A stretch of DNA of 48,090 nt from Chromera velia (taxonomy: Eukaryota), in assembly GCA_018398765.1 (NCBI GenBank), contig JAHBMJ010000415.1, positions 1 through 48,090 of the forward strand. The letters run 5' to 3'. The notes under the pieces are model-generated. The model was given only the letters and a program-made list of their open reading frames with translations, did no database searches and had not been told where the DNA came from. How positions within the stretch are numbered: the first letter of the stretch is position 1; the number at the start of each line of letters is the position of its first letter. Shown here in pieces: positions 7,070 through 37,288 of this stretch. Both the position numbers and the translations under genes were made by a program.

Positions 7070-8176
7070 ACGAAAACAGGCACAGAGAACTGAAGTGTGT
7101 AGTGGCCGGAAGAAAGAAAGTTCTGTCCGTATCCTTCCGTTGTTTCTTTCTTTTTGTTTACTTCTTTCTCTCTTTCTCACTTGGAGCGCACGGAAGGGGA
7201 TGAAAGGACAGGCATCTGGAGAGGCGCACTCGAATGAAGAGTCGGAAAGCGAGGCCTGACTTGCTTCCTTACTTGGTTGCTCCCTCACATTCCAAGTTGC
7301 TGCCAAGATTATGGGCCTTCTAAAGACGTTTGTGGTTTACTTGCTTGCAGGAGTTTGTCTTTCGCCTTGACTACACGCCTCCGTTGGATCCAATCGAAGG
7401 TTCCCTCCAGTCCGACTGCCAGAGGGGGGGGGGTGTTGGGACTCCGAGTCGGGCGCTCTGCTCATTCTGCTGCTGCTGTTGTAGATTCTCTCTGTGGACA
7501 TGGACAGTCATCGTCTCTTTCTGGAGGTCTTCGCAGGGGGGGTGGTGGGAAGGAGAAAGTCGTGATACGTTCGGGTGGAGACAGAGGTCCTGTAAATAGG
7601 GGGGGAAGGGGAGAGGTGCGGATCGGGTGGGAAGTGTTTTGTGTCTCTGCTGAGGGGGTGTGGACGTCTCTGTCTGTCGGGAAGAGCAGGAGGGGGTGCA
7701 GCTCTTTGAAGTCGTTCGATGGTCTGAAAGAAGAAGAGTGGCAAGTGTGCGAATACGTGAAGGCACCTGAAAAGATTTCTGAGCCTCTGTTGGGGTCTGG
7801 GGGTGACTGTGTGATGATTACCGACGACGAAAGGGGGGAGGGAGGGGGGGGAGGGTATGTGAGCATTGGGGTGAGAGTGCGCTTGGTCCGGAGATCTGGG
7901 GGAGGAGAGGCTGAGGAGAAGGAGAAGGATAGAGACGGGGCACTCGAGTGGAAGTTGGTCAGGCCAGGCACGACTTCGTTCCTTCTCCGTCCTTTGCCCG
8001 ACTCCCAGCTGCCTCTGTCCCGTCTCCGGCCTCTCCCCGGGGAGGAAAGTGAAGATGAAAAGGATGAGGAAGGGGACGGTATTTGGGAGCCAGAGGGGGT
8101 CTCTGCATTCAGGGTCCTTCGACGTGACGGTTCTGAAGGAAGGGTACCAATGTGGAGGGTTTCTGAATCAGGATGA
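1..8176 (+). CDS. Large multi-exon hypothetical protein (5' end outside window), possibly with divergent MATH/TRAF-like beta-sandwich domains
   Basis: Chain of purine-rich long ORFs on + (48-1268, 2337-3794, 3831-5018, 5040-6383, 6770-7093, 7277-8176) separated by pyrimidine/microsatellite tracts with GT..AG ends (e.g. ccg|gtaggt ~1014, tgcag|gg ~2357, cg|gtaagt ~6380, tgcag|ga ~7351). Ends at TGA 8174-8176 ahead of an AT-rich spacer. Confidence 0.6.
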
Positions 8177-9300
8177 GGGAGTATGGTGGATGTGATCAGT
8201 CTAGCTGCAAGCCGATCGAACATGCACAGCTCCCGAGAATGATTGCATCCATGCCACCTTTCAGTGGCTGATGGTTGATCTGGGGTGTGCTAATGCAGAA
8301 GGTCAGAGCAAAGTCCTCACTGAGTTCTCTCTGCTGCAAAGAGCGATAAATTGTCGAGAAACAAGATGATCAATACTAGAAATAATAGTGTTGTACGTGG
8401 GAGCGGTGCTCGTACAGCGATGTTCAGCGACCTCCGTGCGCATGCGCGAAACTGCAGGGAGCTTCCGGCTTTTTGGCAGAGCCGGTGTGCCAGTGGCCTC
8501 ATCTTTCTGGGGTTTTACTGTCTGCAGCTGTGCCAGTGAGAATAAATTGTGCACGTCCGCGTAGGTGTAAGTCAAAGTTTAATAAGGCAAGTTTTCCATA
8601 GCACCTCCCGGTGTGAGTATGACTTAGTAGGACAGCTGAGTACAGTCAATGACTTTGCATTTCAAGTTAGTGATTCTGCTATAGTGATTATATTACTAAG
8701 TGATTCTCAATGAAACATATCAAAACAGTGTTGAAAACACAATCCAAGAATACTTGCATCATGACAGCCTTCTAGATAGTTAGACCATGTAGGCTGGACA
8801 GTGTATAATTGTTTTATTAAGTTTTATATGAAAACCAATAAATTCTTATTCTTCGTATCTATCTTAATGCATTAATGCTAGCATTAATATAACTTCATAG
8901 TATGCAATTGATTAATATTGTAAGATTGAATCAACATTGCGGGTTAAATGCTCTGTGGTCCACAGTAACTGTTTGGCCAACCATATAACATGATATAGGT
9001 TTGATCAATCGAGTTCTTGAATTAATTTAATAAAATTATTAAATGTATACAACATCGAAAGGTTTGATTGCTACATAAATTACAGTTTAATTACTAAATT
9101 TTTCTATCATTAATAAGATTCATTATTAACAAAAACTAAGTAAGTATTATTGAATTGCATTCAATGCATAGAGACAGAGCCGCATCATGGCCCATATGCC
9201 AGTGTTATTGAAGCGTTTTAGACTAACTTTTCAAGCAAAAGTATCAAGAATTGTTTGGTTATGTCAATCAATATCACCTACGTGATCACCACTCTATAGT

Positions 9301-9528
9301 CTAGGTGTCGGCTAAAGAAAGAAAAAAAAAATCTCCCCAAACCTTTTATATATATATTTTTTCTTTTTTTCTTTTTTAGCTAGTCAAACAACTGTTATTC
9401 AAGTGTTGCACAAGTGTTGTTCATGTGTTGCACAACTGTTGTTACGTATTGTTGAAGGTAAAAAAGTAAAAAAAAAAGAAAAAGATCTCCTCTGATCGCT
9501 TATTTTTTTTTTTTAAGCCGACGTCTAG
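9301..9528. mobile_element. MITE-like element, copy 1 (~228 bp)
   Basis: Imperfect TIRs CTAGGTGTCGGCTAAA ... TTAAGCCGACGTCTAG around an AT-rich non-coding interior; homologous copy at 30637-30961. Confidence 0.65.
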
Positions 9529-9661
9529 ACTCTAGTCAGCACTGCATCATGCCAGTCATAAAACTTGTACGTAATAAAAAAAATTAAAAAATATGTAGTG
9601 CATGAAAGACTTTCAATGAAAGCCTTTTTTAAAAAAGTTATTTTTTTTTTATTTAAATTAA

Positions 9662-12328
9662 TTATGTAACAGTCGCTGAAAGTGAAAATGCTTTGCAAGG
9701 CTGCCAGGGCTTTCCAACATATCGGTTTCCTTTGCGACGATTCTCTTCAGACCACATTGGCTGGAGATTTGAGAAATGGAGGCGGGAAAAAACAGTTTCA
9801 GTGTCTGGCTTCTGGCCATCCGGACCAGCAAACATGATGGGCACAATGTGGTCAACATGCCACAGGGTCCCGTAATTCTTCCACGACATTCCTGGGTTGC
9901 CGTGGAAGTTATCCTTCTCGAGGTGGGACTTCAAATCGGAATACGAACAACCCAGGTACTCATGGGAGCGTTTTCGGGGTTTCGGGGGAGGCTGGCCTTT
10001 TCGCATGGCCCGTAGAGATCTGTACACGGTTGAACGCGCAATCAGAGTGAGTCGAAAGACGACATCCTCCCTGTATCGGATCCTTTGTGTATCATTCCTG
10101 CGTTGCCTTTTTTCTGCAAACGCTGGATTGTTCTTCTGACACTCTGCGCATTGACTTCTGCGTTTTTGGTGTTCACATATCTGAGCCCCGTGACAATCCC
10201 GACAATTACTGCGATGACGACCGTGCTCACAGATCCCATTGCCACCGCAGTCGACGCAATGGTACTTTGCACGCCCATGAACACAAATAGATGCCCCACC
10301 ACACTCTGCACACACAGAACGCCTTCGACCGTGGATGCAAATTTGAGATCCCCCACACTCTTTGCATGTCCTTCGAGTGCGACCGTGTTCGCAGATCCCT
10401 TTCCCGCCGCACTCTTTGCAATCGTACTTCTGTCTTCCGTGCGGACAGCGCCCTTTGAGGCGGTGGCATTTGGGATTTGTTGCTGTGGCGATGATTGTCT
10501 CCGAGTTGGTGAATTCTGTTTGTATAAATGCCCCCTTTCCCCTCCCGCTTTTTGCGTCAACAGGTGACGTACCACTCCCGAAAGGAGCAGATTTTCTCTC
10601 AGGCTGCTCGACACAAACAGGGGTGGAAGAGCGGGATAGAAGGGTGGAGAAAGACCTGAACTGTCTTAAAGTTCCAACGGCAACAGAGTTCTTTTCTGCA
10701 CGTAGTCGTGTATCCGTGATGGCTTCTGACTGGTGGGGCACTGCCCCCGCTAGAAGGTGGGGAAAACTCGAACCCCCCCAGGAAAAAACTGAGGAGGGTG
10801 CCGTTTGGGCAGATCTATTTGGAGGGCGTCGAGCCAATGGGAGAGGCGTGCTGCTCTGTTCAACGATACTAAGCGCGTTCTGTGAGGGGAAGAGCAAGGG
10901 CGGCGGTTTGCCCACAAACCTGTTGCCCTTTCGGAGATTCTCCCCTGACCACATCGGCTGGAGATTTGAGAAATGAAATCGTGCGATCTGGGTCTCTGTG
11001 TTTGGTTTTTTGCCGTCAGCACCTCGATACATGATGGGCACAATGTGGTCAACATGCCACAGGATCCCGTAATTCTCCCACGACATTCCTAGGTTGCCGT
11101 GGAAGTTATCCTTCTCAAGGTGGGACTTTAAATCGGAATACGAACAACCCAGGTACTCATGGGAGTGTTTCTTTTCTCCCGGGGACCTGCTTTCACGTAA
11201 ACCACTCAAATATCTCCAGACTGACCGCCTCACGGTCTGTCCCAGTCGATATACGGGGTCCTCTTTGTATTTTAGCTTCTGCCGCAGATGCCTTTCAGCG
11301 AAAGCGGGGTTGTTCTTGTGGCACTCTGCACAGTTGTACCTCATGCGTCCGTGTTCACAGAAGCTTCTACCGCCGCAATCCCTGCACTTAGAGCGCTGAC
11401 GGCCATGTTCACAAATCCCTCCTCCCTTACACTCTCGACACAAACTGCGCTGACGACCGTGGCTGCACACTCCTTTTCCTCCGCATTCTACACATGAATA
11501 TCTCATGCGCCCGTGAATGCAAATCGACTTCCCCCCACAATCCTTGCACTCATGACGCCTCCGGCCGTGCTCACAAATTCCTTTTCCACCACACTCTTTG
11601 CATTGGCTTCGCCGATGCCCGTGCTCACACAGGCCTTTGCCACCGCACTCTTTACATCTACTTGTCTGTCTGCCGTGCGGACAGAGGCGCTTTTTCGGAC
11701 AATCACCATCGTTCAAATTTCTTTCTCTTCGAAGTTGGACATCCGGACTCTTCCCACCGATGCGTGCACGTTCAAGTATTGATAGTGACGCACTGAAGAC
11801 TCTCAAACTCCCGACATTCTCTCTGACATCTGCTGGTCGTCTGCAGAGTGCAGGCATAACAAGCGAAGAACTCCGGAGCAACCTGCGGTGCTCAACAACG
11901 ATCTGAAGAGACTGCCGGTGCATCAGAGTGCGTGTTTCGACCGAAATAAGAGGATACACAAAGAAAGGATAGGAAAACCTTAAACAAGTATCCGACGGCG
12001 GAGAAGACATAGAACAAATCTGCCGCGCTTCATGGCCCGAAGCCCTGATTGCCTCGCCAAGATGATGCGTTACAGCAGCAGTCTTCGAGCTGCTTCGGGA
12101 CAGGTACTCACAAAAGCTGGTTTTGGCTATGGGTCCTTGATACCACCATCGACCTTTCATGAGGGAGGGCTTGCTGGTTTGATCTGAGAGGGGAGTGGTA
12201 AATTTGTCTCGTAAAAGCGACAGTGCAGGGCGACCAGGATGGCCTGGAGTGCAACGAGAGAGCACTGCTGCCCCTCGTCTCATCTTGGGACAGGATTCAA
12301 TCGGCGTACAGCTGGCCAACCGATTCAC
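9662..12328 (-). CDS. Intronless protein with two tandem [18-aa CHCC zinc-finger repeat array + HNH endonuclease] modules
   Basis: 888-codon uninterrupted ORF (GTG at 12328, first ATG at 12283). It has 7 + 6 repeats of CxHGRxRxxCxxCGGxxI, each array followed by YLGCS..L..HLE...GMSW.NYG..WHVDHIVP...HFSNLQPMWS.EN.RKGN (HNH/HNN motif). Confidence 0.9.
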   Translation of the reverse strand: MNRLASCTPIESCPKMRRGAAVLSRCTPGHPGRPALSLLRDKFTTPLSDQTSKPSLMKGRWWYQGPIAKTSFCEYLSRSSSKTAAVTHHLGEAIRASGHEARQICSMSSPPSDTCLRFSYPFFVYPLISVETRTLMHRQSLQIVVEHRRLLRSSSLVMPALCRRPADVRENVGSLRVFSASLSILERARIGGKSPDVQLRRERNLNDGDCPKKRLCPHGRQTSRCKECGGKGLCEHGHRRSQCKECGGKGICEHGRRRHECKDCGGKSICIHGRMRYSCVECGGKGVCSHGRQRSLCRECKGGGICEHGRQRSKCRDCGGRSFCEHGRMRYNCAECHKNNPAFAERHLRQKLKYKEDPVYRLGQTVRRSVWRYLSGLRESRSPGEKKHSHEYLGCSYSDLKSHLEKDNFHGNLGMSWENYGILWHVDHIVPIMYRGADGKKPNTETQIARFHFSNLQPMWSGENLRKGNRFVGKPPPLLFPSQNALSIVEQSSTPLPLARRPPNRSAQTAPSSVFSWGGSSFPHLLAGAVPHQSEAITDTRLRAEKNSVAVGTLRQFRSFSTLLSRSSTPVCVEQPERKSAPFGSGTSPVDAKSGRGKGAFIQTEFTNSETIIATATNPKCHRLKGRCPHGRQKYDCKECGGKGICEHGRTRRTCKECGGSQICIHGRRRSVCAECGGASICVHGRAKYHCVDCGGNGICEHGRHRSNCRDCHGAQICEHQKRRSQCAECQKNNPAFAEKRQRRNDTQRIRYREDVVFRLTLIARSTVYRSLRAMRKGQPPPKPRKRSHEYLGCSYSDLKSHLEKDNFHGNPGMSWKNYGTLWHVDHIVPIMFAGPDGQKPDTETVFSRLHFSNLQPMWSEENRRKGNRYVGKPWQPCKAFSLSATVT
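9707..9967 (-). other. HNH endonuclease domain 2
   Basis: WHVDHIVP ... HFSNLQPMWSEENRRKGN; close paralogue of domain 1 at both protein and DNA level. Confidence 0.85.
10139..10447 (-). repeat. Zinc-finger-like repeat array 2 (6 x 54 nt / 18 aa, last unit partial)
   Basis: CPHGRQKYDCKECGGKGI, CEHGRTRRTCKECGGSQI, CIHGRRRSVCAECGGASI, CVHGRAKYHCVDCGGNGI, CEHGRHRSNCRDCHGAQI, CEHQKRRSQCAEC. Confidence 0.95.
10904..11167 (-). other. HNH endonuclease domain 1
   Basis: WHVDHIVP ... HFSNLQPMWSGENLRKGN. The catalytic D-H, structural N and metal-ligand N of the beta-beta-alpha-Me fold are all present. Confidence 0.85.
11321..11683 (-). repeat. Zinc-finger-like repeat array 1 (7 x 54 nt / 18 aa, last unit partial)
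   Basis: CPHGRQTSRCKECGGKGL, CEHGHRRSQCKECGGKGI, CEHGRRRHECKDCGGKSI, CIHGRMRYSCVECGGKGV, CSHGRQRSLCRECKGGGI, CEHGRQRSKCRDCGGRSF, CEHGRMRYNCAEC. Confidence 0.95.
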
Positions 12329-13323
12329 ACATGATTTACAACATCAAGCTGGCCCGATACATTCACTAGACAAAAAATTTATGGCTTGAACCGAAGATGT
12401 AGAAAAATGAATGCGTGACTTGCATGGAGGAAGCCCACGTGACTGCTGGCCAGCGACTGTACATCTCGACATAGCCAGCTCCGCGTCGTGCTGAATTATT
12501 GTCAGTTCAACAGAATCAATGTCAGAACACTCAGAGTTACAGCTAGACATGTACACATATATACGTGCAGAGAATTCTATAGAAATGCAACAATGCAACA
12601 ACACTGCATGCCTGCATGTGCATGCAACATTCAGTCTCATTCAATGTGTGTACGGGTTCTGCAACACCGCAAATTGGTATGCAAGTTTGTTCGCGCGCAT
12701 CGCGCCGCATTCGCGCGCGAAAGTTAGTGCGAGAATTAAGTTTGTGCGCGTCCTCAGAGGGCAGCTTAAGTAAATTAACCTAAATTAACCAAAGTAAACC
12801 TAAGCCCCCGCGAGAAGTATCGGAAATTCGCATTACAATTCTGGGTGTACCTGATTTTTAAGTATATAGCACTGTGTGAGTGAACAATTGATAAGACAGA
12901 CAGTCATTTGAAAGTACGTAAGCTAGTCTGTCTCTATTACTCTCTTAGACTAGCTGCCTCTAGCTATAAAACGTAAAAAATATTAAAAAATATTTTTAGA
13001 TACAGTGATCAGCATAAATTGGCACATTAAAGTTGTATACAACGTCATACATGCTGTAAGATATCAGAGTGGAAACCTCCTTGAACCTAAATACCACTTG
13101 AAAAGATATAATTAAGATTATTTCTATCTAGAGTTGAGTGATTGACGATCTCTTGCATGAACATGGACTGCTGGGAGCACGGCTCCACTCTAGTGAAGCC
13201 AACTTCATTCATTCATTCATTTATCTGCGGCATCGTTTTTTAAGAGACCGTCCATGCCTGTGGCGTAGCTGGTCAAAAGACCGCCCAGATATGTGGCTTT
13301 GATTTTTAAGATACTGTAAATGA

Positions 13324-13659
13324 TCAGCGCCTACGGTGCACACTTTCAAGCTTATCCAAAAATGCGGCTTGAACTTTCAAGTGGTAGTTACTAGTAGTAG
13401 GTTTAGGAAGGTCAGAGTGGACACGCATTGCAGTGATGATTGCATCATTATTGCACGCTGACGTGTTAAAAAAAAAAAAGATTATATAATGCATACCAAT
13501 ACTGAATACACACCAGGGCAAATTTGCATCAGAGCTCCCCTCGCTCCACCCGCCCGTCTGTCTGTTCGTCCGTCTATCGGTCAATTGATTCATTTAGTCA
13601 TTGATTCCTTCATTCATTCATTCATTCATTCATTCATTCATTGACTCATTCATCGACTC

Positions 13660-13693
<34 letters not shown>

Positions 13694-16600
13694 TCATTTA
13701 TTTTTCCATTCATTCGTGCATTCATTCTTGATTGATTCATGCTCTGACCCATCAGGCCGCTTCGGTATCGGAAAGAGACTCTCGAAATCCGATTGTAGCA
13801 GTTCCCCTAGTCTCTGTTTCTCCTGAGGTGTCGTGCCCTGGTTGTTCTTTGTTGAGGGCAAGGTCGCAAGAACCCGCAGACGCTCGTGGGCTGCCTCGGC
13901 TTCGGCTGCAGCAACAGCTTCGCTTCGCCGTCTCCTCTTTGCTGCGAGCACAGCGGGGGAGTTTGCAGAGGGCAACGGAGCGGGGCTGCATGGCCGGGTC
14001 CCTGGAGGGTTCTCCTGGGGGTCTGCGTACTGAATGACGGACCCCCTGCGTGTCCCTCTTCTTGCCTGCTGACCCTGAGGAGGGCTCCCGCCATCGTCCC
14101 CTTCCAAGAGAGCGGCCTTGACTGCCTGGGCAGAGACGGATATGCGGGGAAGTCTCTCTGAGGCTCCATGCGGGAGGGGAGGAGCCTGAGGGACAGAGGA
14201 CTGCTGAGATGCTCGTCGGACGCGTGTGCTGTCAGCAGAGGAACGTCTTGAGTGTGAGTGGGGGGGGCCTGCAGGGTCTATGTTGGGCAGCTGCACTCCG
14301 GCTTGGCTGCCTCGACGAGCTTGAAGTGCAGGCACAACAATTTCCCCTCTGTTCAACCTGGCTCTTTCATCTGCGTGGCTTAGATCGGATGCGTTTTTGC
14401 GATCTTTCCAGAAGGCCTTCACGCATTGTTGTACGGGGCTTTGGTCCTCTCCCTGCATGAGAGAAAACGCGTCGTCTTGGGGGGCTTGGGAGACTAGTCG
14501 TTTCTTTGAAAAACTTTCGGGTGTTCGTCTGAAGTGGGCCGAAACGCTGTCGATAGAGAAGGCAGTGGAGGCGTTTCCACAGTCCTGCAAAATGAGGAGA
14601 AGCTGGAAGACCTCATCCATTGTTACTGGAGAAGGCTTTCCCTTCGTGCCTGTCGCGCTGTTGCCGTCTCCTTCCACGAAGGAGGGCTGAGAGAATACCG
14701 GAGGGGCGCAGGCTGGAGAGACAGAGAAGCGTCGGAATGGGTTGAGGCTCTCAGCGGCCAGCGAACGCTGGCTTGCTTCTGCAAATCTGATCCTCATCTG
14801 GTGCAGAGACTGGATGCACTTCTCTCGCCTGCACAAACGGAAACAGAGAGCAAAATTTAACCACACACCGGCCATCGTGTGTTGTTCTCATGAAAGGCAT
14901 GCAGGACGGGAAGAGGTGAAATGGTAAAAAGATTCCTGCGGAACGGAAGAGAGTGTAGAGGTGGTTCCCTCTTTTTCACCACGACAACTGACGCGCTGTT
15001 TGCACCCTCCCCAAAACCTGTCTCGACCATTCTTGCTTACGTGCCCAGAGGTTGTCACAAGATTGTCCATCCAATACGCACTCCGCCGAGCTGAGATCAA
15101 AAAAGAAGATCGGGCCAGCTCGAAGCGACAGAAGAGAAGCGAAAGTCACCCTGCATGACAAACTTCGTCAGCCCCCACTCAGCTCACATTCCATTCGATC
15201 GATCTGTGTTGCCATCTCACCTCTTCATTACTTGCCACCACGCCCGCATTTCCGCCCGATGCAGCACACGTCGTTCCCGGGCCCACTCCTGCAACCGACC
15301 AAAGAGAGGCAAAGCCAGTGTTGCAGACAGACGGTTTGTCTCTCACAATCCCTACGGTAGTAAGCTTGTGAGGCGTCAGCATGCATGTGAGCGCTGCATG
15401 TGAGCGCTCACGAAGGCTTTCGTCCACCGAGATATATGCGGCCAGATACAACGAAACGCAAGGAAGCACAGTCCAGGAAAGAGCAGACAGAATGGGAAGG
15501 AGACAAAATCCCACCAATCAACCAAGGCGTGCAGCCTGTGGCACCCAGCCATACAGCCGACAGACAGACCTTACAGAATTCCATTCTCATCTCTTCAGGC
15601 ACAGGGTTGAATTTGGGTTTCCCATCGGGTCCCTGCACTACGGGGGGCTGGAAGGTCTTCAGAAGTTTCATCGAGGGGGCTGCGGCCACGACCCTTCTTC
15701 TCCCTGCAGTGGGTCTCCTGATCTGCTTGGGCGAAGGTGAACTTCTAGGGGAGGCTCTAGGAGACATCAGGGCGTTACTTGGGGGGGACATCACACTGCT
15801 CTTGTGCTGGGGTGTGGATAAAGTATTTTTGGATTCTGTCGGTTCCTCGTTCTCTTTTTCCTTCTCTTTCTCTTCTGCTTGATCGTTCACTTTGAAGATG
15901 CTGGTGACTTTTGTCAGGTCGTCGCCCCACAGAGCCCCTGCGGTCGGTTCTCCAGGCGATGATCCTGCTCTCGGTTTAGCCTTGAATGCTGCAAAGGCTG
16001 CCATCTGGGCTAGAATCGTCTTTTCGGCCTCCAACCTGTAAGACGAGCAGGAAGTGGGCAGACCCAAAGTACAAAAGTCTGACAGACAATTGGAAGAGGG
16101 AAAGACGATGGTCTCAGATAAAAGGCGGACGGGAGATCACGAAGAAAAAAAAAGTCACAACGCAGTAATTGAGTAGCAAAGTTCCACAAAGCATACTGGC
16201 TCGCAATGCCCACGGCGCAAATATGCAACAGGACAAAGGCAAGAACAAAGCAAAAAACGGAAAAGAGCGAAGATTATTTGTCCAAGGATAAGGCACAACG
16301 ACTGCCGGCCGACTTACCACTTTAACTCAATAACCCTCTCCTGAATTCTCAATCTCAAAATACGTCGCCTCCACCAAAGCTGTAGCTTCGCCACACTGTA
16401 GACAAACAGTCAACAGAAAGAGACACACAGTCAGAGAATGAATTAAGATTGGCAACTCAAGAATCTGCCCTGACGGCGCTGTTCCAAATGATTCAACTGT
16501 TCCGTCTCTCTCTCATATGACTAATCTCACTGCGGGACGTTTTGCTAAATTTTCATTTTTTGACTTCTTGCGCTGGGCTCCTGAATAAAAGCCGCCTGGG

Positions 16601-32414: not shown

Positions 32415-33325
32415 ATGAATCCGTCTACTATCACTTCTGAGCTCATCCAGCAGCTCATTCAAACTCAACAGCAGCAGCAAGCTGAGATCCAGGCACTGCA
32501 GGTCCAAAACGGGCAGTTAACCCAACAGAATCAACAACTGCACCAAGAGCTGATCAACCACCAGCAGACAGTCGTGACAGCACAACAAAGCACCGCGGGG
32601 AACAGCCCCCCAGCGGCCGTGAAGTCAAATTTGAAACCCAAAGAGCCGTTCACATACGCAGGCAGTCGCAAGCAACTCCCAGATTGGCTCCGTACGACAG
32701 AAAGATGGCTTCGCTTGTCGCGAGCGTCGGAAGCCAAGAAATATGAAGCAGCATGTCAGTACCTATCCTGTCTCCTGCAGAGGTGGTACAAGCTCGAAAA
32801 CCAGGTCCTCCGAACGCCGTTCCAGGGGTGGGAGAATTTCAAAGAGAGGATTGGGAAGAAATTCAAAGACCCAAATGCTCAGACACGTTTGCGAGAGGAA
32901 GTCCGAGCAATGAAATGTGGGAACAAGACAGTGCAGAAGTACACCGATGACTTCATAGAGAAGGCCATATAAATTGAGGATGTCACAGAAGCCGACCTGC
33001 TGCACGACTACCTCAGGGGATTGCCAACTGACATTCGTCTCGCTGTGAAGCGTCGGGGAGTCACGGGACTTGAGGCCGTCATGACAGTGGCAGATGAGGA
33101 AGACCAATTGATCAGAGGCGAGCGCGCCGATGGGGCAGGCACACGGTGCAACAGCGCAATACGGATGGGCCTGCACCGATGGAAATAGATAGATTGTCAC
33201 GCTTATACGCGCTGTCGTACGAGCAGGTGCAGAGGCACATCAGAGAAGACAGATGTTTCAACTGCCACCAACAGGGCCACCGGGCGAACAGGTACCCAAA
33301 ATCCAACAACCGTCTCCTCCCCTAG
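32415..33325 (+). pseudogene. gag: gag (premature stop at 32970, frameshift, degenerate zinc knuckle)
   Basis: Retrotransposon-gag-like WENFKERIGKKF..P.AQTRLREEV..MK...TVQKYTDDF; continues past TAA as IEDVTEADLLHDYLRGL; knuckle CFNCHQQGHRANRY at ~33253-33294. Confidence 0.85.
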
Positions 33326-33583
33326 CAGCACCGAAACTTCCCATATCAGTCATTTCAGCAGCAACAACAGCAGCATCGGAATGCCCCTCCCCGTCCTGAT
33401 AATCGGAATTTCAGGCACATGGGGGTCAGCAACCCTCTCATGCAGCCTCAGGGTCCGGTGGTGCCCTCAGGCCTTGCACCTTCGCCCATGCAGCACCAGC
33501 AGATGTGGCAGCCTGCCGCACGGCCAGTCACTGACTTCCCGCCGGGGTTGTAGGGCTCGCAACAGCAGAATCAGAATGTAAGC

Positions 33584-36500
33584 ATGCGGAATGGCTACCC
33601 GTTTTGCAGATACTACCCCACAAAGACCTCCCGCGCACCGGAGAAGCTCATCCGCTTCCACGGTCGGTTGGCAGGGGTCTTTGTTCGCTGTCTGTACGAT
33701 CCTGTGGCAGATTTGAACTTCCTTGCCCATTCCGTTGCCGAGTCAAACCGTTTCACTCTCTGGAATCTTGATGAGCCGACCGCATACAAGGGCGGGTTGA
33801 ACGGGGGACCATAGCTTCCGATTTCCCAGGAGGTCAAAGGCCTTCCCCTCTGCATCCAGGGCTTCAGCGCGCCTCTGGACCTCACAGTAGTTGATCTGGA
33901 CAATGATTACGATGTTGTGTTGGGGATGCCCTTCTGTGAAGAATACCTTCCTATCCCCCATTACCGTGAGAAGGCCTTCACGATCCCCGCGTGTGAGTCA
34001 CCGACTGGGAGAGACTTGCTCCTGCTTGATAGCGAGGAGTACCCGGCAGGAGGGGAGGGGGAGGACTTCTTTAGCTAGAGAGAGCTCCGTCGGCTGATGA
34101 AGAGACCCAGTTCCCGTGTACATCTGTTCCGCCTCGAAGCAGTATGGAAGGGGCGGGTGAGTGATACGTTGGGGGTGCATTCCCTGCAGTCTGCCGGTAA
34201 GCTTGGAGACCCACCGCCCCTTTCATCTTTCTCTCCTGACCACCCCATCAATTCTTCGACCTACATGGGATTCCGAAAGCACCTCCAGAGTAAAGAAGTC
34301 CCACCCAGCGTCCAACCGGTTCTCGAGAAATATTTTGATCGGTTCCCAGACAAGCTCCCGGGTCTCCCACCCCACCGAAAGATCAAGTGTGAGATCAAGC
34401 TCGAGGCAGGGCACTCTCCTCCTGCGAGAACACCCTACCGACTGTCATACGGTCAGCTTGACGAGCTGAAACGGCAGTTAGACTCATATCTTGAGAAAGA
34501 GCACATCCGTCCTTCGATAAGTCCATATGCTGCACCAGTCCTGTTTGTGCAGAAGGCAGACGGGACGCAACGGATGTGCATCGACTTCACAGGACTCAAC
34601 AAGATCACAGTCCGCGACAAATTCCCCATTCCTCACCCAGAAGAGCTGCTGAGTCGCCTCCATGGCGCGAAATTTTTCTCGTCTCTGGACTTACGGCAAT
34701 ACTTCCATCAGACAAGGATCAGGGAGGGAGACGAGAAGAAGACGGCATTCGTCATAAGCCGCACTCCGGAGGAGCATATCGAGCACATCAACCGAGTCCT
34801 TTCGCTTTTGAGGGAACACCAGCTCTACGTCAAGGTCTCTAATTTAAAATGCGTATAGCTTCGGACAGAGGCGAAATTTTTGGGGTTGGTGGTTGATGAA
34901 AAGGGGGTCAGACCAAGCTATGAGAAAATGCAAGGGCTCACTGAGTTCGCATAACCCATAGACCGCACTTCCCTGCGCCAGTTTCTGGGATTGGCTAATT
35001 GGTCCCGCCGGTTTGTCCCGAGGTTCTCGTTTCTTACAGAGCCTCTCACATTCCTCCTCCAAGGGAACGTCCCCTTCGAATGGAAGACTGCACAGTCGCG
35101 TGCGTTTGCTGAGCTAAAGAAGGCAGTACAGGAGCATGCCACGCTTGCCCTCCCCGATCCCAGCAAGCCAGTCATTCTGGTGCCCGACGCGTCGTAGTTG
35201 GCAGGAGCCATTGGGGCTGTCGCCCTCCAGAAGGACTATGCAACCGGGAGATACCGCCCCCTCGCTTTCGGCTCCTGCCGTCTGACATCCACGGAAGCCA
35301 AGTACCCTGTCCGAGAGTTAGAATTTCTAGTGATTGTGCATTTCGCAAAGGTGTGGAGACACTTCCTGTCTCCAGACTCCGAAATATGGACCGATCACCA
35401 GAGTCTCACAAATTTCAGCCACCGATCGTTCGAATTTTGCTCCCTGTGAGTCCGACGCTGGATTGAGTTCATGCAGAAGCTTGGCATCACTCCAAAGTAC
35501 ATCCCAGGGAGAGCAAACATTGTGGCAGACGCCCTTTCCCGAAACCCTCCTGCCGCACGGCAGCTCGTGCCGTCTTCCGCCGGGGTTTTTCGCATGGGTC
35601 GCGCTCAGCGTCTGCCTGTACGTCCCAGGCCTCTGCCAGAGGCTGTCCCGGTGTCTATCCAGCCCATTGGGTCTTCGGGGGCTGAGTACGCTGATCTGCC
35701 CGATTTGGGTCCTCAGATTGAGGAGAGCCAGACTCTAGTTAGGGAGGGAGATGGGCAGCAGTCTCGGGTAGGGATGGAGTTGCAGAGTTTGACGGTCTCC
35801 GCCACACAGTCACAGGCATTCCTTGATACCTGCAGGAGGGGATACTCAGCCGATCCCTTCTTCCACCCTGTCCTTCAACATCTGTCACAGCAGCACCTAC
35901 CCGCCCCCACCCTTGATTTTGCCCTTCGTTTGCGAGGCATGTCGCTTCGTGCCGGTCTCTTGTATTTTGAGGGGAATCGCCTCTGTGTCCTTAGATCTCA
36001 GCAGGGGACTGTGATGGCTGGGGTGCACTCCCCTCCGCACGCTGCTTACTTTGGGATGGGGAAGACCTATCGGAAGGTGACGTCATTGTACTACTGGCCC
36101 AAGATGTGGAGGTCAGTCGCTTCTTTTGTTCGCGCATGCGATCGGTGTCAGAGAAGCAAGGGTCCCACTACAGCCCACCCTGGGCTTCTGCAGCCCCTCC
36201 CTATCCCTTCACGCCCTTGGGAGTCGACTTGCATTGACCGCCTTACTGATTTGCTGCCTTCCGGTGATGAGGGGTTTGATGCGATTCTTGTGGTACTTTG
36301 CCGGCTCATCAAGGCAGTTGTCTTGATTCCCACTCACAGCACAGCAGGAGCAGAGGAGACCACGCAAATCTACCGCCAGCACGTTTCGTGCAAGAAGGGC
36401 TTCCAGCGTCATATCGTCTGTGACCGTGACCCCCGTTTTGTCGCCCGCTTTTGGTAGACCCTCCATGCCTCCAGCGGCTCGGAAGTCAATTTCGCAACTG

Positions 36501-37288
36501 CATCGCACCACGACACAGCAGGTGCTGCAGAGAGAATGAATCGCACCCTCGAGGAGGCTTTACGGTATCTGGTAGACACGAAGCACTCCCGGTGGTCTAA
36601 ATTTCTGTGTAATGTGGAGTTTGCATACAACTCCTCTGTCCATGAGGGGACTGGTTTTGCACCCCTCACTCTCGATGGTGGGAAGTCCCTGCTCATCCCT
36701 CCCGCTCTCAATCTCCCAGTCTCAGTCGAACCTTCTTTCGACGCAAGGGAATTTCTGGAGGAGCACAGCCAGATGATCGCTGCAGCAAGAGATTCACTCC
36801 GCTCAGCCCAACAAGTCATGACCCGAAACGCCAATCGCCGTCGGCGTCCTGCTAAGAACATCCGAGTAAGAGATTACGTCCTGGTGCACCGTACGTGGTG
36901 GCCACGTCCTGTGGGGAAGGGGGAGGAATATGCTACGAAGCTTGATTCAGTTTGGTTCGGTCCGTTCGAAGTCGAGACCGTTCTGCCTCGAGACAATCTG
37001 GAGGTTGTTTTGCCTGCTGGGAGCAGGAAGCACCCTATCATTCACACATCGTTGTGCAAGCCTTACTGTTAGCCGAGTGGGGAGACTCGCCCCCCGTCTG
37101 TCCGCATGCCCGCTTGGGCTGAGGAGGAGTATGAAGTCGAGAAAATCCTTGCCATCCGAGGGAGGGGCAAGGCCAAGCAATACAAGGTTCTCTGGAGGGG
37201 ATACCCATTGGAAGACGCATCATGGGAGCCCCTGTCGTCATTGAAGAATGCAAAACAAGCGATCGCCAATTTCTATACTTCGGCCTGA
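33584..37288 (+). pseudogene. pol: pol: protease, reverse transcriptase (YxDD region deleted), RNase H, integrase, chromodomain; multiple stops and frameshifts
   Basis: Protease-like LYDPVADLNF; RT SPYAAPVLFVQKADGTQRMCIDFTGLN..DKFPIP..FSSLDL; RNase H LVPDAS..GAVALQ..YPVRELE..WTDHQSL..YIPGRANIVADALSR; integrase YYWPKM..CDRCQ, DRDPRF, AERMNRTL; chromodomain YEVEKIL..YKVLWRGYPLEDASWEP. Confidence 0.93.

What the first reader, a model, noticed from the sequence alone, without database searches (positions are those of the whole stretch)
9662..12328. Natural single-chain 'double zinc-finger nuclease': two [repeat array + HNH] modules in one ORF
Seen: one intact ORF with architecture leader - 7 x 18-aa CHCC repeats - helical linker - HNH - spacer - 6 x repeats - helical linker - HNH, with catalytic motifs intact in both nuclease domains. 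Known: a single HNH (beta-beta-alpha-Me) active site cuts one strand, and HNH homing endonucleases use appended DNA-binding modules for specificity. Inference: the two different arrays could each read a half-site and position two nicking domains to make a double-strand break, like an engineered ZFN/TALEN pair fused into one chain. It could be a selfish/homing gene or a domesticated defence or genome-processing nuclease.
Basis: partly seen in the sequence, partly recalled or inferred. Interest (0 to 1): 0.88.

Follow-up and report, generated by a model that had tools for sequence, protein, structure and literature searches.

The report
Doubled virus-derived zinc-repeat nuclease gene
A single-celled eukaryote carries one unbroken gene made of two back-to-back units, each a string of small cysteine/histidine repeats (likely zinc-binding) joined to a predicted DNA-nicking domain; the unit likely came from giant viruses, where it occurs singly, and likely spread through this genome as a selfish gene, while joint cutting by the two halves is untested.

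Summary
9662-12328 (minus strand) is one stop-free frame: leader, 7 CxH-x6-CxxC repeats, helical linker, HNH, spacer, 6 repeats, linker, HNH. Both DH..N..N sites are intact, and two DNA runs match the junction exactly.

The host is probably Chromera velia or a near relative. The one-module form is common in giant viruses, once inside a PolB intron-like insert. I found the two-module form only in Chromera: 11 of 17 related gene models show a second module, and the Chromera HNHs form one branch among single-module relatives.

Against a maintained precision tool: differences from another strain look neutral (7 of 25 synonymous, 7.8 expected), 8 of 17 models read their arrays off-frame, and the two HNH halves were recently homogenised.

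Best reading: a virus-derived homing-endonuclease-like gene, doubled in frame and dispersed as a selfish family. Cooperative double-strand cutting with half-site reading is possible (about 0.2) but unshown. This scan had already noted single-module versions of this repeat on other (viral) DNA; none of the notes shown had the doubled nuclear form.

The parts
9662..12328 (-). Whole ORF, 888 aa from GTG (873 aa from the first ATG at 12283), two array-HNH modules
11684..12283 (-). N-terminal leader, aa 16-215, no detected relative
   Evidence: no blastp hit among fetched proteins, no Atlas hit; stop-free in 0 of 20,000 shuffles
11321..11683 (-). Array 1: 7 x 18-aa C-x-H-x6-C-x2-C repeats, basic (27 K+R against 12 D+E), predicted zinc-binding
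   Evidence: AlphaFold pLDDT 82-95 in 10-residue blocks over the array, same small fold per repeat
11162..11320 (-). Helical linker 1 (aa 337-389)
   Evidence: two long helices in the model
10904..11161 (-). HNH domain 1 (aa 390-475): VDH 426-428, N455, N464
   Evidence: (phrog_1035 'endonuclease VII', E 4.8e-9)
10448..10903 (-). Spacer, 152 aa, rich in P/S/T/G/Q and charged residues, poorly conserved; 151-175 aa in three other Chromera models
   Evidence: stop-free in 63 of 20,000 shuffles; DNA confirmed
10139..10447 (-). Array 2: 6 x 18-aa repeats with different variable residues
9965..10138 (-). Helical linker 2 (aa 731-788)
   Evidence: aligns with linker 1
9707..9964 (-). HNH domain 2 (aa 789-874): VDH 825-827, N854, N863
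   Evidence: E 8.1e-9
11030..11164 (-). Tract nearly identical to 9833-9967 (130 of 135 nt), likely gene conversion between the two modules
   Evidence: synonymous differences 2 of 38 codons here against 16 of 28 in the rest of the HNH, p=3e-6

Best explanation
This is one intact gene with two tandem [repeat array + HNH] modules, likely a homing-endonuclease-like selfish gene that the Chromera lineage acquired from giant viruses, doubled in frame and spread to many places in its genome. Each module is predicted to grip DNA with its basic repeat array and to nick one strand with its HNH site (inferred from the HNH family; not measured). Copies likely arise through repair of the breaks the enzyme makes, or as cargo of other mobile DNA; the route is not shown. 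Once inserted, a copy appears to be under little selection: this one is still open and catalytically intact, but it differs from another strain's version at about the neutral ratio, and many sister copies look broken. The doubled layout is a family trait rather than an accident at this locus. Whether the two nicks are coordinated into one double-strand break is open.
For: Shown: single array+HNH ORFs in 25 of 81 array-bearing ORFs from 80 viral loci, none doubled; 40 others carry the same array on a different nuclease motif. Their neighbours include NCLDV capsid, PolB, thymidine kinase, dUTPase and SNF2/YqaJ genes (81 neighbour ORFs from 22 of 25 loci). In L037 the module sits between PolB pieces. 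Structural neighbours include a Bodo saltans virus 'intron encoded endonuclease' (E 8e-8) and a Pithovirus array protein (E 9e-24). The 18 Chromera HNH rows form one branch (100/96) inside a group of single-module relatives (midpoint root). 11 of 17 Chromera models show a second module and 8 of 17 read an array off-frame. Strain differences: 7 of 25 synonymous against 7.8 expected neutrally; dN/dS 0.2 rejected at p=2e-5; divergence 2.1% against 0.6% in neighbouring exons, p=1e-4.
Against: No terminal inverted repeat or target-site duplication was found around the gene, it is not in a recognised intron, and no empty allele was seen, so mobility of this copy is not shown. The strain comparison rests on contigs of depth 2-5 from two runs of one study, and the direction of the changes is unknown. 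The Chromera sister copies are gene models without DNA, so off-frame arrays may be prediction errors. The tree has 94 columns, a midpoint root and an unsettled bootstrap. The viral donor is inferred from similarity, not from a tested root.
Confidence: 0.55

Rival explanations
1. One reading: a single-chain paired nickase. Each array would read a half-site and the two HNH domains would nick opposite strands close together to give a double-strand break. This can be true together with a selfish origin.
For: Both active sites are intact and the two arrays differ. The doubled layout recurs with 151-175-aa spacers. Repeat positions 6, 8 and 9 are hypervariable (3.1, 2.9, 3.5 bits in 221 repeats from 29 proteins), while positions 5 and 7 are Arg/Lys in 92% and 97%.
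Against: One module is the usual unit in viruses. The head-to-tail order with a long unconserved spacer fixes no geometry. Arrays differ even among viruses that hold the gene beside the same neighbour, so no simple code emerged. Drift looks neutral and includes loss of one repeat cysteine in the other strain.
Confidence: 0.2
2. A functionless tandem duplicate or read-through of two adjacent genes, now a young pseudogene, in which the fusion never mattered.
For: Neutral-looking strain differences and a 16-nt gap in one low-depth contig of run X3. The spacer has no significant match to other spacers. Many sister models look broken.
Against: Leader and spacer are stop-free far beyond chance (0 and 63 of 20,000 shuffles). 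The two-module order recurs in 11 of 17 models. The second halves of the two HNHs keep 28 of the compared codons as the same residue while 16 of these differ synonymously, which indicates past purifying selection.
Confidence: 0.15
3. A domesticated host gene: an antiviral nuclease aimed at giant-virus DNA, or a genome-processing or regulatory factor.
For: Chromera has many nuclease-free arrays of the same repeat fused to other domains, many labelled CBM20 (one confirmed), so the repeat has been taken up by the host. Low-depth contigs from runs guessed to be RNA cover parts of the ORF. Fast change could be diversifying selection.
Against: Amino-acid changes are spread over leader, spacer, linker and arrays rather than focused on the variable positions. 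Divergence is 3-fold above neighbouring exons. Sister copies look decayed.
Confidence: 0.1

Closest known systems
HNH (His-Me finger) homing endonucleases of giant-virus group I introns, e.g. Bodo saltans virus (PMC5871332, passages read; BFVD entry A0A2H4UUB1)
   Same: Same linker-plus-HNH fold by Foldseek (E 8e-8); a single-module relative lies in an intron-like insert of a giant-virus PolB (L037).
   Different: Here the gene is nuclear, free-standing, carries 18-aa repeat arrays and is doubled in one frame.
Unnamed giant-virus 18-aa repeat-array nucleases (Pithovirus LCPAC304 A0A481Z8I3 'DnaJ central domain protein'; Ostreococcus tauri virus OTV1_127)
   Same: Same repeat, linker and HNH; 40-47% identity over a whole module to the best metagenomic relatives.
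   Different: One module only; some (prasinovirus type) have DE instead of DH; many carry another nuclease type instead of HNH.
Zinc-ribbon HNH nicking endonucleases of phages, N.phiGamma and kin, and the engineered Zif268::N.phiGamma nickase (PMC3592412, abstract and outline read)
   Same: Zinc-type modules beside an HNH domain; these enzymes are site- and strand-specific nickases, the basis for predicting one nick per module.
   Different: Their HNH holds a [CxxC]2 zinc site and they have one or two extra zinc sites and sit beside terminase genes; here the HNH has a single Cys and there are 6-7 regular repeats per module.
Engineered ZFN/TALEN pairs (recalled, no call)
   Same: Layout: variable repeat array in front of a nuclease domain, two units.
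   Different: Not C2H2 fingers, not FokI, head-to-tail in one chain, and no recognition code shown.
PacI and T4 endonuclease VII (His-Me finger groups 20 and 13 of PMC5714182, passages read)
   Same: Weak fold match to PacI (Z 4.5, rmsd 4.8, 90 aligned); PHROG family labelled 'endonuclease VII'.
   Different: No Pfam match, no sequence match in the PDB; these enzymes act as homodimers (recalled) and have no such array.

Membership tests
His-Me finger (HNH) nucleases | DH...N...N catalytic and metal-binding motif on a beta-beta-alpha core | tested here: met
   VDH/N/N in both modules; D, N, N invariant in 72 rows; model has strands 215-219 and 247-251 then helix 252-258
His-Me finger (HNH) nucleases | Fold match to a solved HNH structure | tested here: inconclusive
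   Foldseek best E 0.65-0.69 (Cas9 HNH); VIA-align CAD Z 4.9 (rmsd 4.5, 117 aligned), PacI Z 4.5 (4.8, 90), below an unrelated row at Z 5.2
His-Me finger (HNH) nucleases | Metal-dependent DNA cleavage | not testable with these tools
   needs purified protein
Homing endonuclease genes | Located in a self-splicing intron or intein | tested here: not met
   window gene is free-standing; no intron family at 7800-14000. A relative, L037, does sit inside a PolB insert, though Rfam found nothing there
Homing endonuclease genes | Patchy, varied insertion sites among relatives | tested here: met
   viral relatives beside capsid, PolB, TK/DUF5824, SNF2/YqaJ, methylase and other genes; at least 17 other Chromera gene models
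Homing endonuclease genes | Cuts the empty allele and is copied in by repair | not testable with these tools
   no empty allele available; no whole genome held
Zinc-finger nucleases (C2H2-FokI) | C2H2 fingers and a FokI domain | tested here: not met
   repeat is C-x-H-x6-C-x2-C; no Pfam match at E 0.05
Zinc-finger nucleases (C2H2-FokI) | Modular residue-to-base code | tested here: inconclusive
   three hypervariable positions, but arrays differ among same-site viral relatives
EsV-1-7 repeat proteins (PF19114) | Match to PF19114 | tested here: not met
   0 of 32 array-HNH proteins matched; the model does hit a separate stretch of P0075
Phage zinc-ribbon HNH nickases (N.phiGamma type) | [CxxC]2 inside the HNH domain; gene beside terminase | tested here: not met
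   one Cys per HNH domain; no terminase among 28 ORFs scanned
Endogenous giant-virus region | Viral hallmark genes nearby | tested here: not met
   none above Pfam cut-off in 28 of the 124 ORFs of 100 aa or more that were scanned; neighbours are spliced host-type genes
DNA transposon or retroposed copy | Terminal inverted repeats, target-site duplication or poly(A) tail around the gene | tested here: inconclusive
   no exact direct repeat of 11 nt or more and one 11-nt inverted match between the flanks; an A-run follows the stop, but the flank is full of A/T runs

The most novel reading that the evidence does not exclude
A eukaryote has built, from a giant-virus homing gene, a natural single-chain paired nickase: two re-writable arrays of 18-residue zinc repeats each read a half-site by a residue code and place two HNH domains to make a long-site double-strand break. 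It would be the most compact natural ZFN-like scaffold known and would drive its own spread in a nuclear genome.
Probability: 0.17. Interest if true: 0.9.

Novelty: new variant of a known kind. Interest (0 to 1): 0.56.

Why it matters
The 18-aa repeat has no Pfam model and no solved relative, yet it is joined to at least two nuclease types across giant viruses and varies at three fixed positions, as a DNA-reading module would. This locus shows the module entering a eukaryotic nuclear genome, doubling and multiplying there. One cultured alga thus offers many arrays to pair with insertion sites or in-vitro targets, which makes the question of a recognition code testable. If the halves cooperate, it is a natural blueprint for a single-chain paired nickase. 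If not, it is still an apparently undescribed selfish nuclease family in a nuclear genome.

Tried and rejected
Whole-genome search: no genome held, so sister loci were seen only as protein models.

Misassembly or artefact: rejected.

Leader as a diverged copy of the spacer: no significant protein or DNA match (best E 0.1 and 0.24); a profile of three other spacers did not hit either. A faint shared motif in the alignment is unproven.

Splicing of a module: no GT..AG joint listed in runs X3/X4. No contig of theirs bridges HNH1 to the spacer, and no run is on record as RNA; neither blank is evidence.

Full-length fold without alignment: failed, pLDDT 33.6.

Complex prediction of linker-HNH1 with linker-HNH2: tool not available, so contact between the domains is open.

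PDB sequence search: nothing meaningful. NCBIfam: nothing. Rfam on L037: nothing; one chance hit on a microsatellite in the window.

Module-1 versus module-2 clades: not resolved (4 changes each; 30 and 31 of 500 shuffles as low).

Recognition code from same-site viral arrays: no shared pattern.

Other Chromera-like DNA in metagenomes: 3 distant loci only.

The arrays have no matching solved fold reported; the structure lists were filled by the HNH part, so the array was barely tested.

Run X5 (one 151-nt contig) was not used.

Full report
1. Observation. The finding lies on the minus strand as one frame of 888 aa, the longest stop-free stretch in the window (893 codons, next 493). It holds 7 and 6 repeats of C-x-H-x6-C-x2-C with an 18-aa period, each array followed by a helical linker and an HNH-type domain with VDH...N...N intact. 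The modules are 64% identical. Base shuffles left the leader stop-free in 0 and the spacer in 63 of 20,000 trials. Two DNA runs of different studies reproduce the module junction without a difference (one may be the window's source).

2. Host and setting. The window is microsatellite-rich eukaryotic DNA with Ty3-type retroelement pieces at 32-37 kb. The best protein hits are Chromera velia gene models at 44-74% identity. The exact ORF is not in the collection and no genome is held, so the host is inferred. The gene lies between spliced genes, in AT-rich flanks that each hold a high-depth repeat (9300-9529 with inverted ends; about 13127-13390). I found no viral hallmark gene among 28 of the 124 longer ORFs scanned and no clear element ends.

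3. What the module is. Pfam and NCBIfam know neither part. PHROGs matches linker plus HNH to a family labelled endonuclease VII (E 5e-9 and 8e-9). AlphaFold on a 32-row alignment gives module 1 a mean pLDDT of 88 (pTM 0.60), with a repeated small fold, two long helices and a beta-beta-alpha core. Matches to solved structures are weak but mostly HNH proteins (Cas9 HNH, CAD, PacI). Matches to predicted viral structures are strong: a Pithovirus array protein (E 9e-24), a Bodo saltans virus 'intron encoded endonuclease' (E 8e-8) and mimivirus L246. The Atlas's nearest clusters are all viral, two of the best three mostly Nucleocytoviricota. The linker-HNH family is huge: 44,604 clusters at E 0.001 or better.

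4. The single module is a giant-virus mobile-type gene. In 80 viral loci, 81 ORFs carried the array: 25 with one HNH, 40 with a motif of another nuclease (RRPD...EIDE; earlier scan notes call it EDxHD/Vsr-like, a label I did not test), 16 with neither, none with two HNH. Neighbours of 22 of the 25 loci (three near-duplicates left out) were varied viral genes: capsid, PolB, thymidine kinase, dUTPase, SNF2, YqaJ, a methylase. In L037 the module lies between PolB pieces, with the frame broken at PKPIKL and resuming at EFEQ. A motif I recall as typical of group I introns lies near the ends of both inserts there, but Rfam found nothing. Intron-borne HNH homing enzymes are described for Bodo saltans virus (PMC5871332, passages). 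In 221 repeats from 29 proteins, positions 6, 8 and 9 are hypervariable and positions 5 and 7 are nearly always Arg/Lys. Against a simple code, arrays differ even among five viruses with the gene beside DUF5824/TK.

5. The doubled form is a Chromera family. Among the 150 best representatives, ranked by whole-protein score so that two-domain proteins rise, 12 have two real domains: 7 Chromera models and 5 proteins with no array (3 more rows listed with two stretches had one domain on re-test). A further 82 loci gave 88 HNH ORFs, none doubled. Of 17 Chromera models with this HNH, 7 have two HNH motifs, 1 has a second partial one and 3 have an array after the HNH, so 11 of 17 show a second module; 8 of 17 read an array in the wrong frame, which suggests broken copies or prediction errors. 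Three models have spacers of 151, 172 and 175 aa against 153 here by the same measure; only two of these resemble each other significantly. The 18 HNH rows from the first 10 Chromera proteins (this one included; 8 later models not in the tree) form one branch, 100/96, within a group of single-module relatives; the root is at the midpoint, the bootstrap had not settled, and first versus second modules were not resolved.

6. Selection and conversion. Runs X3 and X4 (one study, RNA by guess, spliced contigs on neighbouring genes) hold a version about 2% different, in contigs of depth 2-5. Of 40 difference rows shown I used 25: 9 were dropped as likely paralogue contigs, 6 as upstream of the ORF, and the tool hid 11 more. 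Seven of 25 are synonymous against 7.8 expected without selection; dN/dS of 0.2 is rejected (p=2e-5) and 0.5 weakly (p=0.04). One change removes a repeat cysteine (aa 712), and one X3 contig has a 16-nt gap near its end, unconfirmed. Divergence is 29 of 1370 nt against 13 of 2109 in neighbouring exons (p=1e-4; 16 of 952, p=0.008, without the gapped contig). Between the two modules, the first 45 HNH codons are 130 of 135 nt identical (2 of 38 synonymous differences) while the last 42 differ synonymously at 16 of 28 (p=3e-6). I read this as an old duplication under past selection with recent gene conversion.

7. Mechanism. Shown: architecture, intact motifs, viral single-module relatives, a multi-locus doubled family, neutral-looking drift, conversion. 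Inferred: zinc binding, DNA binding by the arrays, one nick per module (by analogy with phage zinc-ribbon HNH nickases, PMC3592412 abstract), viral origin, selfish spread. Untested: cooperation of the two sites, a recognition code, one transcript, the route of spread. I put 0.55 on a virus-derived selfish nuclease family with copies that decay after insertion, 0.2 on the cooperative paired-nickase model, 0.15 on a functionless duplicate and 0.1 on domestication.

8. Literature. Ten full-text searches listed no paper whose title or abstract start describes this repeat-HNH family or its presence in Chromera; most listed papers were seen only as listings, and subscription journals are largely missing. 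I read passages of PMC5714182, PMC5871332 and PMC12220804 (no mention of Chromera or zinc in the last) and the abstract and outline of PMC3592412. Supplements were not opened; tables of PMC5714182 might place this HNH in one of its groups. Earlier notes of this scan report single-module versions of similar arrays in giant viruses; none matched this sequence or genome.

9. Verdict. Real feature; new variant of a known kind (HNH homing-type nuclease with appended DNA-binding modules). The new elements are an undescribed repeat, transfer to a nuclear genome and in-frame doubling. Interest 0.56.

Noticed in passing
window 9300-9529: MITE-like element with imperfect terminal inverted repeats; summed contig depth about 2,500 against 30 in run X1, so a high-copy repeat.
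   Followed up: partly
window 13127-13390: Second, much higher-depth repeat (about 12,000 against 30) with three 33-nt subrepeats at 13223-13322; class unknown.
   Followed up: no
window 32415-37072: Fragmented Ty3/gypsy-type LTR retroelement: gag, reverse transcriptase, integrase zinc-binding and SH3 matches in separate ORFs.
   Followed up: no
L037:135-5671: Giant-virus PolB gene split by an intein and by at least two intron-like inserts, one carrying a 10-repeat array-HNH gene; a natural target-site test case.
   Followed up: partly
Chromera proteins P0012, P0015, P0026, P0035 and others: Many nuclease-free arrays of the same repeat at the C-terminus of proteins labelled CBM20 (confirmed for P0012); possibly a host-adopted DNA-binding family.
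   Followed up: partly
P0242, P0243, P0247, P0249, P0251: Twin-HNH proteins of the same nuclease family without arrays; in three of the five one copy has lost the DH motif.
   Followed up: partly
L009, L012, L013, L016, L018, L023, L024, L061, L066, L068: A subgroup (prasinovirus-like, with OTV1_127) has DE in place of the catalytic DH, invariant within the group.
   Followed up: no
window 10362-10976 (+): A 204-codon open frame antisense to the spacer and the start of array 2; probably incidental.
   Followed up: no
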